64,000 nucleotides of DNA from assembly GCA_965202585.1 (NCBI GenBank), contig OZ241826.1, forward strand, positions 26,474,001 through 26,538,000, written 5' to 3'. Below, one piece after another: positions 30,001 through 33,000 of this stretch. The position numbers were made by a program. Numbering within the stretch: position 1 is the first letter of the stretch; each line of letters starts with the position of its first letter. The stretch is from Thalia democratica. Lineage: Eukaryota.

Positions 30001-33000
30001 ATTTTTCAAAACGAGGTTTTAGTTTGCTCCTTCTTTTAGAAACCTATTAACATCACCGATTTTGATTACTTTTATGTCAAAAATTACTTTGAGTTTGTTA
30101 AAGGGGTTAAAATTTCTGATAGCTCAGATAAAACTCTATAAAATAAAATCAACTTTAAAAATCAATTTGATCACCCCCTATGCAACTAAATCATAAGCAC
30201 ATAGTTTCAAAGCATTATATTTAAAATGTTTAAATAATTTAAATTTATGAAATAATTTTTTTTTATACATAAAACAAGTCTTTTTCACAACACAAATATA
30301 TTTCAACAATTTTCTTCAGTGTGATTACAATTATTTTCCTATTTCATAGAGCAAATAAAATATGTTCGCCAGAAGTATTTCAGAATGAACTTAAGGTTAT
30401 AAAAGAATTACTAATAAAGAATGGATACCCTAATCCGTTGATTGATAGGGTATTCAAAACTGAATTGAGAAGACTAAAGTACACAAAACCTTATGGACCA
30501 GAGAAATGTCCTGTTCTATTAATTTTGCCTTATGTGGGTGAAAAATCAAAACAAGTTGAAAGAGATATCAAGAATATGACAGAAAAAGTTTACCATGCTT
30601 CTAAACCAAGAGTAATTTTTACATCTACTGCTATCCTAAATCCTAGAGGTAAAGATCTAATATCCTACAAGCACAAAAGTTGCGTGGTATACACGTATAA
30701 ATGCTGTTGCGCAAACAGCTATATAGGACAAACATCTAGGCATTTAGAAACAAGAATAAAAGAGCACGTACCTAAGTGCGTGAAAGACCATATCAAAAAT
30801 CAACCGAAGAAAATGAGTATTGCAACCTTAAACGCAACAAAAAGATCATCAATTTCAGAGCACTTAGTAAAAAATCCTAAATGTGGTAATAATTACAGTG
30901 AGACAAAGTTCAAAGTTTTAAGAAGTTGCACGAACATTTTTGATTTAATTAAAATAGAAGCTATTTATATTCACTTGGACAAGCCAGAATTATGCAAACA
31001 AAGAGAGTTTGATTACTCTTTATCCTTGTTTAAATTAGACTAATTTTGTTTTGTTTTAAATGTTACAGTTAATTATGTTTTCCTTGTTGTTTTTAAATTT
31101 TTTGTTATAGTTTAGGGTTTTTTTTACTAATTGATTGATAATTTCTCATATAATTAAAAAGGCTATATAAGTTTAAAATTTGTTTTACCTTGTTACAATT
31201 GTAATCACACTGAAGAAAATTGTTGAAATATATTTGTGTTGTGAAAAAGACTTGTTTTATGTATAAAAATTAAAATTAGCAGACATATGTTTAAAATTTT
31301 TTTTTAATAAAGCAAGACTAAATTAAAGGAAATTTGAAAAACTTATTTGAAGATAACATTAATTTATTGATTTAATTGATTTCAATACCAAAATTTGGAA
31401 TGAAGTAATAACCAAATTTCAAAAAAATATACACAAAATTGAATTAAGGGCTTAGGGGAGTTAATCACTATTTTAACATTTTAGTCCTATTTTTAAGACT
31501 TTCAAATAAGCTACAAGATGCTTTTTACAGATTTTATAAGTTCAAAATAATATTTGAGATATAGCAGGTCAAAGTCAGAGGCATTTTCCTTATGGGGGTT
31601 GCAAACTAAAACCGCAAAAACAGTTTTGTTTTTGTTTTTTTTATCATAAAACTTTTATTTTTTAATTTTCTTTTGACAGAATTTTCTAAATATTGCAAGA
31701 ACCATTTCCTGAAAACTTGAGGTAGTTATCTCAAAAAAACGTAGGAGAAGATGGATTATTATAGATTTCTAGTTGATTGTTGTTTTACTTTGGGCCACCC
31801 ATAACGAACCTATTGTTATCTCTGACTTTGACCTGCTATATCTCAGAAAATTTTTTAAGTTTTAAAAATCTATAAAAAGCAACTTGTAGCTTAGTTAAAA
31901 CTCAATAATATACTAAATTGTGAAAAAGTTGATTTATGCCCCTATGCCTTTAAATATGAAAGAATTTTTCTTATTTATGTAAAATAATTAAAACATGATA
32001 AGGATCTAAATATCTTAAAACTGGTGAAAATATAAAAGTTTAATGTTCATCTTAAATGTAATAAATTCTGAAATTTTATAATATTAGTAAAAAAGCTATG
32101 CACACTACTATAACAAAAAAGTAAGCAAAGAAACAAATAAAAGTTAAAGTCAAAAACAATATTTTTTAAAATTATCTGTTTGTATATACTTATGCAATCT
32201 ATAATAACAAAAACTATTGATATATAAACAATAAAATTGCCAACCTTTAACATTTCCCTCTTCAAATATGTCACCAAAAGCCGTGTCTTTATCATCTAAT
32301 ACCGGACCGTCAACCAAAGTCCTGCGTCTTTTGTTGGTGGCTTGTTTCTCTTCCTCCTCCTTTACAATTTGAAGAGTTTAAATTTTTTTCTATTAACCTT
32401 AGGGGCAAAGAATTATAAACTGTTAATTTGGTCAAAAACAACATATTTACTTTTTTCTAGCAATTTTTTTTAACCTATCAGATGCTTTTTAGAGTTAAAA
32501 AATATTATTCAGTACTTTTTTTTGTGAGATTTTATAAGTATAATAGCTGTTTAAACCTTGACATTGAGAGCATCAAGCACTTTGTCCATCTTCTGGTTCT
32601 CATCTTCCGATGAGTAGCAATCACTGCTGTAATCTTCTGAATCTGAACTCATTTTGTATGTATTTGTATGCAGGTGTTTTGCTGAATGTAATTACTTTAT
32701 AAGTTAAATCTGTTGGTAGTGTTGACTTACTAATGTTAGTTTAAAAGTTTGACGACAGTTATTACTTTTCTTATTGTTTAAAACAAACTTAAGAAACATA
32801 AAACCATTGCTTTCTAATTTTGTGCATGTACTTGTATACTTCCTTGTTATCTTCATTGATACTTTTACAACATGTAAAAATAGCTAGCAATTAGTACAAA
32901 AAAATAATCTATTGTTCTACTGGTTAATATAAACACCAAACAATGTAAACTTGTGTTAAACAAAAGTATTTCATTACTTAATTTCAATGTTCACAGCTTA

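What the first reader, a model, noticed from the sequence alone, without database searches (positions are those of the whole stretch)
30260..31290. Copy-specific Penelope insertion puts a hammerhead on the UTP14 pre-mRNA strand and creates a 73-bp foldback
Seen: an uninterrupted 240-codon ORF and perfectly matching inverted pLTRs, so the insertion is young; it is absent from copies A and C. Each pLTR holds a minimal hammerhead, and the inverted one (30291-30323) is sense to UTP14 intron 2. Established: Penelope pLTRs encode minimal hammerheads that cleave best as dimers, and inverted 5' pLTR fragments are typical. Inference: the copy-B pre-mRNA may self-cleave or form dsRNA (editing, siRNA), so two near-identical paralogs could be regulated differently by an RNA element.
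Basis: partly seen in the sequence, partly recalled or inferred. Interest (0 to 1): 0.68.

Follow-up and report, generated by a model that had tools for sequence, protein, structure and literature searches.

The report
Young truncated Penelope-like insertion in UTP14 intron
One of three tandem UTP14 gene copies carries a recent, broken Penelope-like retrotransposon in an intron, built in the usual way for such elements, and its hammerhead-like motif is too weak and too tightly paired to be expected to cut the host RNA.

Summary
The sequence observation holds. A roughly 1,030-bp insert (about 30265-31294) is present in UTP14 copy B only. It has perfect 73-nt inverted arms and an open frame whose last 234 codons are 99% identical to the C-terminus of an 813-aa RT plus GIY-YIG protein. 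The architecture is a textbook Penelope-like element (PLE) insertion: a short inverted 3'-end fragment, a 5'-truncated main copy, and a one-sided tail that runs into the next unit's ATG.

The "hammerhead" is only partly supported. The motif at 31206-31238 (mirror 30291-30323) has the catalytic boxes, a 4-bp helix I, a palindromic helix III and an AUU site, and this combination is unlikely by chance. However, helix II is two A-U pairs, with no G10.1-C11.1 pair. Rfam finds nothing there at E<=10, and the hammerhead shape has a positive predicted free energy as monomer and as dimer.

In the UTP14 pre-mRNA only one sense copy exists. It is predicted to be locked against its antisense partner in a duplex of -105 kcal/mol. 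All three copies already carry a larger imperfect foldback in the same intron.

Self-cleavage is therefore unlikely, and dsRNA formation is plausible but not unique to copy B. This is an ordinary young transposon insertion of low interest.

The parts
30265..31294 (+). Whole insertion, present in copy B only. Each limit is uncertain by about 5-10 nt because both ends merge with a T run of the target.
   Evidence: three-way alignment with the empty sites in A and C; sequences.
30260..30332 (-). Left arm: an inverted copy of the last 68-73 nt of the element's non-coding region, with its 3' end pointing outwards.
   Evidence: 73 nt, 100% complementary to 31197-31269.
30291..30323 (-). Hammerhead-like motif copy that is sense to the UTP14 pre-mRNA. 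The predicted cleavage site lies between 30295 and 30294 on the minus strand.
   Evidence: it is the mirror of 31206-31238.
30333..30338 (+). Six junction bases that match neither the arm nor the full-length relative (filler).
   Evidence: the alignment to P0001 starts at residue 23 of the frame, which is position 30339.
30339..31043 (+). The 5'-truncated PLE ORF: the last 234 codons plus the stop codon (linker and GIY-YIG endonuclease). No RT is present in this copy.
   Evidence: 232 of 234 residues identical to P0001 residues 580-813; the only tblastn hit of P0001 in the window.
30690..30959 (+). GIY-YIG core. It includes the VVY...YIG motif, the conserved Arg and Glu, and Cys/His columns that fit a CCHH motif.
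   Evidence: Pfam GIY-YIG, E=4.2e-4, 21 bits, below the cut-off of 22.6; invariant Y697, C701, C703, Y707, G709, R718, H754 and E786; fold.
31044..31286 (+). The complete non-coding stretch between the stop codon and the next unit's ATG. This is the sequence that forms pLTRs in tandem copies.
   Evidence: the N-terminal extension of P0009 and the start of P0001 match the frame across 31266-31298.
31197..31269 (+). Right arm of the inverted repeat.
31206..31238 (+). Hammerhead-like motif on the element's sense strand. Its parts are helix I 5' strand 31206-31209, core CUGAAGA 31210-31216, an 8-nt helix II segment 31217-31224, GAA 31225-31227, the palindrome AUAUAU 31228-31233, U17 at 31234, and helix I 3' strand 31235-31238.
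   Evidence: the only core match in the non-coding region; no Rfam match; energies.
31270..31296 (+). One-sided tail. The main copy runs 26-37 nt further than the inverted copy, through the ATG at 31287-31289 and the first codons (M F K I) of the next unit.
   Evidence: tails are described in the papers read.
30254..30264 (.). Possible target-site duplication, left copy (an 11-nt A2T9 run). It cannot be fixed exactly.
31295..31305 (.). Possible target-site duplication, right copy.
29152..32244 (-). Host intron, called intron 2 in a gene model made by eye. It is 3,093 nt in copy B and 2,057 nt in copy C.
28909..29151 (-). UTP14 exon downstream of the intron. It is the first exon with a Utp14 match.
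   Evidence: Utp14 profile positions 55-126, E=8.2e-7; 6 of 6 PDB hits are Utp14 chains, E from 0.017 to 5.3.
32245..32359 (-). Putative UTP14 exon 2. It has an AG acceptor, a GT donor and phase 1, which matches exon 3. No homology supports it.
   Evidence: negative searches.
31488..31912 (.). Older imperfect foldback in the same intron, shared by all three copies. The counterparts are A 2197-2659 and C 59712-60175.

Best explanation
A recent, dead-on-arrival insertion of a canonical Penelope-like retrotransposon (RT followed by a C-terminal GIY-YIG endonuclease) into a T-rich site of an intron of UTP14 copy B, antisense to the gene.

It has the standard product shape of PLE integration: two 5'-truncated copies joined head to head with their 3' ends pointing outwards. 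One copy is 68-73 nt long. The other is about 950 nt and holds the last 234 codons plus the whole non-coding region. The longer copy ends 26-37 nt further along the unit, which is the 'tail'. This fits priming of reverse transcription on both cleaved DNA strands from two nearby internal start sites. That mechanism is inferred from the published in vitro work, not shown here.

The 33-nt motif in each arm is this family's version of the PLE hammerhead core. It has only a vestigial helix II and is not expected to cleave in the host transcript. There is one sense copy per pre-mRNA, and it is transcribed after its perfect complement, so it is predicted to sit in a 72-73-bp duplex.

The likely consequence for the gene is small. 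The intron is 1 kb longer and gains one more intronic hairpin. If that hairpin is processed at all, the products would be small RNAs or editing directed at the PLE family rather than at UTP14.
For: Insertion and youth:
- The insert is absent from the otherwise collinear copies A and C.
- The arms are 73 of 73 complementary.
- The ORF part is identical at 232 of 234 residues to P0001, an 813-aa protein with RVT_1 (E=7.9e-12), whose 90% cluster has 59 members.

PLE identity:
- RVT_1 is found in 31 of 31 full-length relatives, and 36,277 representatives match at E<=0.001.
- DKG, the GIY-YIG motif columns and two Cys plus two His columns are invariant or nearly so.
- The model has mean pLDDT 90.5, and 9 of the 40 listed PDB rows are GIY-YIG nucleases. 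UvrC and I-TevI reach target-normalised TM 0.54-0.61.

Architecture:
- The tail reads into the unit's ATG and first codons.
- Inverted adjacent 5'-truncated copies and a 30-40-bp one-sided tail are described for PLEs.
- Cleavage and extension of both strands, two internal RT start sites and AT-rich targets were reported for an Anolis PLE.

Hammerhead:
- It is the only core match in the 243-nt non-coding region.
- The descriptor is expected 0.035 times per window by chance, and 0 of 400 shuffles matched when a palindromic helix III was required.
- The monomer shape scores +2.6 and the double-hammerhead shape +4.0 kcal/mol.
- The isolated region folds no better than shuffles; 177 of 200 shuffles fold at least as well.
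- The foldback arms score -105 kcal/mol and appear in both the MFE and centroid structures of the 1,071-nt minus-strand RNA. The mean unpaired probability of the motif is 0.001.

Effect on the host:
- The insert adds no AAUAAA in the gene's sense, while the intron already has 7.
Against: - The motif matches the hammerhead core, helix I, the NUH site and the palindromic helix III far better than chance, in the place where PLEs carry their ribozyme. Nearest-neighbour energies ignore tertiary contacts, proteins and co-transcriptional kinetics, so some activity cannot be excluded.
- The descriptor was written after I had seen the candidate, so its chance estimate is optimistic.
- GIY-YIG support is below formal thresholds. 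The Pfam score is 21 bits against a cut-off of 22.6, 0 of 31 relatives reach E<=0.001, and no Foldseek match reaches E<=0.001.
- No DNA of other genomic copies could be fetched, so conservation of the motif rests on two antisense-frame peptides only.
- A perfect 72-bp helix is a better substrate for dsRNA enzymes than the older imperfect foldback, whose longest uninterrupted helix is 23-26 bp. A copy-specific effect is therefore not excluded.
Confidence: 0.78

Rival explanations
1. One reading: the sense-strand motif at 30291-30323 is an active hammerhead that cuts a fraction of copy-B pre-mRNA and so lowers or alters the output of this paralog.
For: - The core boxes, a 4-bp helix I, an AUU site and a palindromic helix III are present and non-random.
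- PLE hammerheads exist and are proposed to self-cleave.
- Sense intronic ribozymes are known in amniotes and in CPEB3.
Against: - There is only one sense copy per transcript. A single PLE motif showed no detectable cleavage, and dimers cleaved only weakly.
- Helix II is 2 A-U pairs and there is no G10.1-C11.1 pair, although both are conserved traits of PLE hammerheads.
- Rfam gives no match at E<=10, while a better core elsewhere in the window is picked up at 24.2 bits.
- Predicted energies of the hammerhead shapes are positive.
- The complement is transcribed first, and the motif is predicted to be paired (unpaired probability 0.001).
- Hammerhead mutants of an Anolis PLE did not change insertion in vitro, and no RNA-seq ends were seen at its cut site.
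Confidence: 0.04
2. The foldback matters rather than the ribozyme. Host-driven transcription through the 73-bp perfect hairpin yields dsRNA that is diced or edited. This would give small RNAs against the active PLE family (its non-coding region), or would change splicing of copy B.
For: - The perfect stem is predicted in the MFE and centroid structures, and the arms score -105 kcal/mol.
- In Drosophila lines carrying Penelope, siRNAs mapped exactly to the inverted regions of rearranged copies (passages).
- The family looks active: a 59-member cluster at 90% identity or more with intact 813-aa ORFs.
Against: - No expression, small-RNA or editing data were available here.
- Both arms lie in one intron, so they would not loop out an exon.
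- All three copies already carry a 440-476-nt foldback in the same intron, with MFE from -138 to -186 kcal/mol.
- The organism and its dsRNA pathways were not established.
Confidence: 0.15
3. The copy-specific presence is an assembly or haplotype effect. The three 'copies' might be partly collapsed or mis-joined haplotypes, or the insert might be a polymorphism placed in one repeat unit by the assembler.
For: - The window has an N gap at 74-173 next to copy A.
- Identity between the copies is mosaic, with B=C at 100% in some stretches and A~C at 98-99% in others.
- Complex PLE inserts are said to disturb assemblies.
Against: - The junctions are clean and have empty-site counterparts.
- The insert has the internal logic of a single integration event (arms, filler, tail, T-run target).
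- Copy B's flanks are distinct from A and C over more than 2 kb on both sides.
Confidence: 0.05

Closest known systems
Canonical endonuclease-positive Penelope-like elements (Penelope/Poseidon type), as described in PMC8557442 and PMC11167929
   Same: - RT followed by a C-terminal GIY-YIG endonuclease.
- A DKG motif and Cys/His columns that fit CCHH.
- No CX2-5CxxC linker motif seen by eye in P0001.
- Strong 5' truncation, an adjacent inverted 5'-truncated copy and a one-sided tail of about 30 nt.
- An AT-rich target, and a non-coding region that runs straight into the next unit's ATG.
   Different: - This copy lacks the RT and N-terminal parts (residues 1-579).
- Clade placement rests on motifs only; no tree was built.
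- The hammerhead motif lacks the long helix II reported for PLEs.
Minimal hammerheads of metazoan PLEs (Cervera and de la Pena 2014, PMC4209133)
   Same: - Type I layout with the CUGANGA and GAAA boxes.
- A short helix I (4 bp).
- No helix III hairpin, but a palindrome that could pair between two copies.
- Located in the pLTR sequence.
   Different: - Helix II is 2 A-U pairs within an 8-nt segment, against 6-8 bp.
- There is no G10.1-C11.1 pair.
- Position 17 is U.
- There is no Rfam match, and the predicted free energy of the shape is positive.
'HHR_core' motifs noted in Naiad PLEs (PMC8557442, methods passage)
   Same: The two core boxes are separated by 7-17 nt (8 nt here) without fitting the usual stem and loop descriptors.
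   Different: That label was used for N-terminal-endonuclease Naiads, whereas this element has a C-terminal endonuclease. Here helix I, the NUH site and the palindrome are also in place.
Intronic self-cleaving ribozymes in host genes (amniote intronic hammerheads, the CPEB3 HDV-like ribozyme; review PMC6765202)
   Same: A ribozyme-like motif lying in the sense orientation inside an intron of a protein-coding gene.
   Different: Those are conserved, well-folded and active as single units. This one is a days-old (in evolutionary terms) transposon remnant, weakly structured and masked by a complementary arm.
siRNA-producing inverted Penelope copies in Drosophila (PMC3681739)
   Same: Rearranged copies with inverted repeats that can fold into dsRNA.
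   Different: The arms here are only 73 nt. Transcription would come from the host gene, and no small-RNA data exist here.

Membership tests
Penelope-like element (canonical, C-terminal endonuclease) | Reverse transcriptase domain in the element's single ORF | tested here: met
   This is met for the family, not for this copy. P0001 is 99% identical over the shared part and has RVT_1 at E=7.9e-12. RVT_1 is found in 31 of 31 full-length relatives. The profile also reaches telomerase RT chains at E=0.0035-0.0042, behind group II and retron RTs. The window copy itself starts at residue 580, after the RT.
Penelope-like element (canonical, C-terminal endonuclease) | C-terminal GIY-YIG endonuclease with a CCHH motif | tested here: inconclusive
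   For: Pfam GIY-YIG at E=4.2e-4, though 21 bits is below the cut-off of 22.6. Y697, C701, C703, Y707, G709, R718, H754 and E786 are invariant and H722 nearly so in 31 sequences. In the fold search, 9 of 40 listed rows are GIY-YIG nucleases, with target-normalised TM 0.54-0.61 for UvrC and I-TevI. Against: 0 of 31 relatives reach E<=0.001, and no fold match has E<=0.001.
Penelope-like element (canonical, C-terminal endonuclease) | Insertion architecture: 5' truncation, adjacent inverted 5'-truncated copy, one-sided 30-40-bp tail, pLTR sequence continuous with the next ORF | tested here: met
   compared with the descriptions read. The tail here is 26-37 nt.
Penelope-like element (canonical, C-terminal endonuclease) | Hammerhead ribozyme in the pLTR | tested here: inconclusive
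   A core motif is present at the expected place. It does not have the stems of described PLE hammerheads, and Rfam gives no match.
Penelope-like element (canonical, C-terminal endonuclease) | RT groups with PLEs in a phylogeny, and clade assignment | not tested
   No reference PLE sequences were at hand and no tree was built. Motifs (DKG rather than DKT; Cys/His columns present) argue against the Hydra clade as described.
Hammerhead ribozyme (type I, PLE minimal form) | Catalytic core C3-A9 (CUGANGA) and G12-A14, with the A15.1-U16.1 pair and a non-G at position 17 | tested here: met
   Core at 31210-31216, GAA at 31225-31227, A at 31228, U at 31233 and U at 31234.
Hammerhead ribozyme (type I, PLE minimal form) | Helix I of 4-5 bp | tested here: met
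   31206-31209 pairs with 31235-31238, giving 4 standard pairs.
Hammerhead ribozyme (type I, PLE minimal form) | Stable helix II (6-8 bp in PLEs, 4 bp in canonical forms) closed by G10.1-C11.1 | tested here: not met
   The segment is 8 nt and allows at most 2 A-U pairs. Adding them raises the energy of the dimer shape from -0.8 to +4.0 kcal/mol. The same 8-nt length is implied in 2 of 2 related copies seen through their antisense peptides.
Hammerhead ribozyme (type I, PLE minimal form) | Palindromic helix III or loop 3 that allows a double hammerhead | tested here: met
   A 6-nt palindrome lies at 31228-31233. With this requirement, 0 of 400 shuffles match the descriptor.
Hammerhead ribozyme (type I, PLE minimal form) | Match to curated covariance models (Rfam hammerhead clan) | tested here: not met
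   No hammerhead family is listed at E<=10 in 30100-31450, and none at gathering score in the whole window. As a control, 20783-20823 scores 24.2 bits against Hammerhead_3.
Hammerhead ribozyme (type I, PLE minimal form) | Conservation or covariation across copies | tested here: inconclusive
   Only two relatives were seen, and only as peptides. P0016 is compatible with every core base. P0017 must have A at position 8, and the palindrome is altered. No DNA of other copies could be reached.
Hammerhead ribozyme (type I, PLE minimal form) | Site-specific self-cleavage | not testable with these tools
   This needs a cleavage assay.
UTP14 (host gene) | Collinear matches to the Utp14 family on one strand | tested here: met
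   5 of 12 minus-strand pieces match Pfam Utp14 in profile order (positions 55-126, 165-222, 220-271, 271-300 and 583-641), and 3 of them score above the cut-off. The exon downstream of the insert hits Utp14 chains in the PDB.

The most novel reading that the evidence does not exclude
The 33-nt motif is a working hammerhead of an unusually reduced natural class. Helix II is shrunk to an 8-nt A/U segment, and this length is kept in all three copies seen. Such a ribozyme would act only as a dimer or with protein help in the element's own tandem transcripts. The sense copy in UTP14-B could then cut a small fraction of pre-mRNA before, or in competition with, the foldback. That would give a copy-specific RNA-level difference between near-identical ribosome-biogenesis paralogs.
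Probability: 0.06. Interest if true: 0.6.

Novelty: new member of a known kind. Interest (0 to 1): 0.2.

Why it matters
As it stands, this is a clean example of how Penelope-like elements integrate: a head-to-head pair, filler bases at the junction, and a tail that reaches the next unit's start codon. It is also evidence that the family was active recently in this genome.

It would matter more only in two cases. One is if the reduced motif turned out to cleave, which would lower the known structural minimum for natural hammerheads. The other is if the host-transcribed hairpin fed small RNAs against the active family. Neither is indicated by the present evidence.

Tried and rejected
- Rfam at E<=10 over the insert and at gathering score over the whole window gave no hammerhead.
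- A search for a second or variant core (U3/A8, spacer 4-40 nt) in the 243-nt non-coding region on both strands found only the one motif.
- Sequence searches of the 234-aa fragment and of P0001 against the PDB gave no GIY-YIG hit. The profile search gave RTs only.
- Homology support for putative exons 1 and 2 was sought four ways and not found: Pfam at E<=0.1 and at E<=10, the PDB, and the large protein set with 'longer' lengths.
- The exons were searched one by one. The step of joining them into a spliced model was left out.
- A first evaluation of the dimer used a crossed structure and was invalid. It was redone with the domain-swapped double-hammerhead pairing.
- Poly(A) signals brought in by the insert were checked: 0 AAUAAA in the gene's sense.
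- I considered whether a private deletion in this copy shortened helix II. I rejected this because both related peptides imply the same spacing.
- No DNA of other genomic copies could be fetched.
- Lunse et al. 2017 (PMC5785218) is not held.
This covers the hammerhead alignments of PMC4209133 and files S1/S2 of PMC8557442, which may already list short-helix-II variants.
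Full report
**Setting**

The window is AT-rich (about 23-38% G+C in 2-kb steps). It holds a tandem segmental duplication with a period of about 29.3 kb. Three partial or whole units carry the 5' part of a UTP14 gene: A (174 to about 3400), B (about 24300-32700) and C (about 53600-61000).

UTP14 lies on the minus strand. Five of 12 minus-strand open pieces match Pfam Utp14 in profile order, three of them above the curated cut-off. The piece at 28898-29188 also finds Utp14 chains in the PDB (6 of 6 hits, E from 0.017 to 5.3).

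A gene model made by eye puts:
- the ATG at 32652-32650;
- exon 1 at 32652-32557;
- exon 2 at 32359-32245 (phase 1);
- exon 3 from 29151.

This model has GT/AG borders and fitting phases. The two upstream exons have no homology support, so 'intron 2' is an inferred label. I searched the exons one by one and left out the joined, spliced step.

**The observation**

The inverted repeat is real and perfect: 30260-30332 against 31197-31269, 73 nt, 100% complementary, 864 nt apart.

The insert is specific to copy B. A and C align through the site without it. The intron is 3,093 nt in B and 2,057 nt in C. A and C are 98-99% identical around the site, so they are close to a single witness for the empty site.

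The + strand frame 30273-31043 is open for 256 codons. It is the longest open frame in the window: only 4 frames in the window reach 110 codons.

**What the insert is**

The last 234 codons (30339-31040) are identical at 232 of 234 positions to residues 580-813 of P0001. P0001 is an 813-aa protein that carries RVT_1 at residues 355-507. Its 90% cluster has 59 members on short ENA contigs, several of them with the full 813 residues.

The wider family is very large. There are 36,277 representatives at E<=0.001 and 2,552 at E<=1e-30. Many are about 810-840 aa and align end to end.

In an alignment of P0001 with 30 full-length relatives:
- all 31 have RVT_1;
- the DKG motif is invariant or nearly so;
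- so are a VVY...YxG...R...E pattern and two Cys plus two His columns.

Support for the endonuclease assignment is suggestive rather than formal:
- The window fragment matches Pfam GIY-YIG at E=4.2e-4, just under the cut-off.
- None of the 31 relatives reaches E<=0.001 on its own.
- A confident model of the fragment (mean pLDDT 90.5) has no PDB match at E<=0.001.
- However, 9 of the 40 listed rows are GIY-YIG nucleases. UvrC and I-TevI domains reach TM 0.54-0.61 when normalised by the target.

RT followed by a C-terminal GIY-YIG domain is the canonical layout of endonuclease-positive Penelope-like elements (abstract and passages of PMC8557442). DKG rather than DKT, and the presence of the Cys/His columns, argue against the 'Hydra' clade described there (section 11). 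I built no tree.

The atlas look-up lists animal clusters with RVT_1 and related families. Flatworms are the commonest phylum in the nearest cluster. I did not establish the organism.

**Architecture**

The unit's non-coding region is complete in the window, from the stop at 31041-31043 to an ATG at 31287-31289. The frame after that ATG reads M-F-K-I, which are the first residues of P0001. The frame before it matches the N-terminal extension of cluster member P0009. The right end of the insert therefore runs through the non-coding region into the start of the next unit.

The inverted left arm stops 18-23 nt before that ATG, and the main copy stops 8-14 nt after it. This one-sided overhang of 26-37 nt is the 'tail' described for PLEs (30-40 bp at one end). 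In an Anolis PLE the tail was traced to two adjacent internal start sites of reverse transcription. In the same work the protein cleaved and extended both DNA strands and used AT-rich targets (passages of PMC11167929).

Other details of the junctions:
- Six bases (30333-30338) between the two copies match neither of them.
- The target is a T run, so a duplication of up to 11 nt (30254-30264 and 31295-31305) can be proposed but not fixed.

This copy lacks everything before residue 580, so it cannot move on its own.

**The hammerhead claim**

The literature read here (PMC4209133, first two of four parts of the text) describes metazoan PLE hammerheads as type I motifs with these features:
- helix I of 4-5 bp;
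- an unusually long helix II of 6-8 bp;
- a highly conserved G10.1-C11.1 pair;
- an extra base 5' of helix II;
- palindromic helix III positions.

In that work a single motif showed no detectable cleavage, and dimers or trimers cleaved only weakly.

The motif at 31206-31238 has the following:
- the CUGANGA box;
- GAA followed by A;
- a 6-nt palindrome in place of helix III;
- U at position 17 (an AUU site);
- four standard pairs in helix I.

It is the only core match in the 243-nt non-coding region on either strand.

The bare core pattern occurs 10 times in the window against 1.04 expected. Those 10 hits are only 5 independent loci, because of the duplications and the inverted repeat.

A fuller descriptor (helix I of at least 4 bp, helix II of at least 2 bp, A...U, non-G at position 17) hits only the two arms. 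In 400 dinucleotide shuffles it hits 14 times (mean 0.035 per window). It never hits when the palindrome is also required. I wrote this descriptor after seeing the candidate, so these figures flatter it. Even so, a chance origin at exactly the place where PLEs carry their ribozyme is unlikely.

Against membership:
- The helix II segment is 8 nt and allows at most two A-U pairs, with no G-C closing pair.
- Rfam lists no hammerhead family at E<=10 over 30100-31450, and nothing at gathering score in the whole window.
- The same permissive mode does pick up a better core at 20783-20823 (Hammerhead_3, 24.2 bits, E=0.0047).
- The isolated region folds no better than shuffles: z=+1.09, with 177 of 200 shuffles at least as stable.
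- The hammerhead shape scores +2.6 kcal/mol as a monomer and +4.0 as a double hammerhead. The helix II pairs make it worse; the dimer scores -0.8 without them.

The closest published label is the 'HHR_core' category: both boxes 7-17 nt apart without fitting stems (methods passage of PMC8557442).

**Other copies**

No DNA of other genomic copies could be reached. An antisense open frame across the arm (31108-31269) found two related peptides, 2 of 2 candidates: P0016 at 94% and P0017 at 77% identity. I read them back to the sense strand codon by codon:
- Both imply the same 8-nt spacing between the boxes. The short helix II is therefore a family trait, not a private deletion.
- P0016 is compatible with every core base. 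It has one extra codon that puts a purine-U-C triplet after the palindrome.
- P0017 must have A at position 8, and its palindrome is altered.

Whether position 3 co-varies with position 8 in P0017 cannot be told from a peptide. The U3-A8 variant is known in schistosome PLEs. Two peptides cannot show selection either way.

**In the host RNA**

The UTP14 pre-mRNA contains the antisense arm first, then 864 nt, then the sense arm. The two arms form a duplex of -105 kcal/mol with a 72-bp uninterrupted helix. This stem is present in both the MFE and the centroid of the 1,071-nt minus-strand fold. The motif's mean unpaired probability is 0.001.

There is one sense copy per transcript, while the published motifs need two. 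Self-cleavage of the pre-mRNA is therefore unlikely on three independent grounds: a weak motif, no partner, and masking.

**The dsRNA idea**

The dsRNA idea is plausible as structure. It also has a precedent: in Drosophila lines carrying Penelope, siRNAs mapped to the inverted parts of rearranged copies (passages of PMC3681739). Three points weaken it as a copy-specific regulator:
- Any such small RNAs would match the element, not UTP14 exons.
- All three copies already hold a shared imperfect foldback of 440-476 nt in the same intron. Its MFE is -186, -138 and -185 kcal/mol in A, B and C, with a longest perfect helix of 23-26 bp.
- B differs from A and C by 9-14% (86-91% identity per 250-column window) across this part of the intron.

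Downstream coding pieces of B and C are identical in 9 of 12 pieces. The exon 3 piece has 4 differences and the exon 1 piece has 3. The exon 2 frames differ in length.

The paralogs are thus not distinguished by the insert alone. The insert brings no AAUAAA in the gene's sense.

**Verdict**

This is a young, 5'-truncated, head-to-head insertion of a canonical Penelope-like element in an intron of one UTP14 paralog, with the standard tail. The element's hammerhead-like core is real as a motif but fails the helix II and covariance-model tests. It is not expected to act in the host transcript.

It is a new copy of a known kind of element. Interest is low, except for the small chance that this reduced motif is catalytically competent.

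**What stayed unchecked**
- Other genomic copies of the family, because no eukaryotic DNA collection was open.
- Supplementary alignments of the two main papers, which were closed.
- Lunse et al. 2017, which is not held.
- All expression-level questions.

Noticed in passing
window 20783-20823 (+) and its duplicate near 50066-50106: This is a much better hammerhead core, with a helix II of GUCC/GGAC type and a GAAAC box. It matches Rfam Hammerhead_3 at 24.2 bits (E=0.0047 in a 301-nt search), below the gathering score of 48.5. The helix I hairpin is missing. It lies about 230 nt downstream of the stop (20560) of a + strand coding exon.
   Followed up: partly
window 2197-2659, 31488-31912, 59712-60175: A shared imperfect foldback of about 440-476 nt lies in the same UTP14 intron of all three copies. 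The arms are 69-154 nt and 81-88% complementary. MFE is -186, -138 and -185 kcal/mol on the gene's strand. It looks like an older MITE-like or hairpin element.
   Followed up: partly
window 28402-32700 compared with 174-3400 and 57686-60950: Identity between the three units is mosaic. B=C is 100% at 28402-28899, while around the insert A~C is 98-99% and B is only 86-91% to either. This pattern looks like gene conversion between units.
   Followed up: partly
window 31193-31204 and 30333-30338: A 12-nt perfect palindrome sits at the inner edge of the right arm, so the short inverted copy ends within it. Six filler bases at the head-to-head junction match neither copy.
   Followed up: no
window 3434-3458, 33632-33656, 61892-61916 (-): There is another CUGAAGA...GAAA core match, with a possible 4-5 bp A/U helix II and a following 8-nt palindrome. 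It is present in all three units, inside a minus-strand open piece (33561-33779). It has no helix I by eye and may be chance or an old element remnant.
   Followed up: no
window 15756-16754, 19386-20403, 45020-46023, 48669-49686: A repeat of about 1 kb is present twice per unit at about 91-92% identity. The copy at 19386-20403 abuts a coding exon that ends at 20560.
   Followed up: no
window 74-173: A run of 100 N lies next to the start of unit A. It was left as it is.
   Followed up: no
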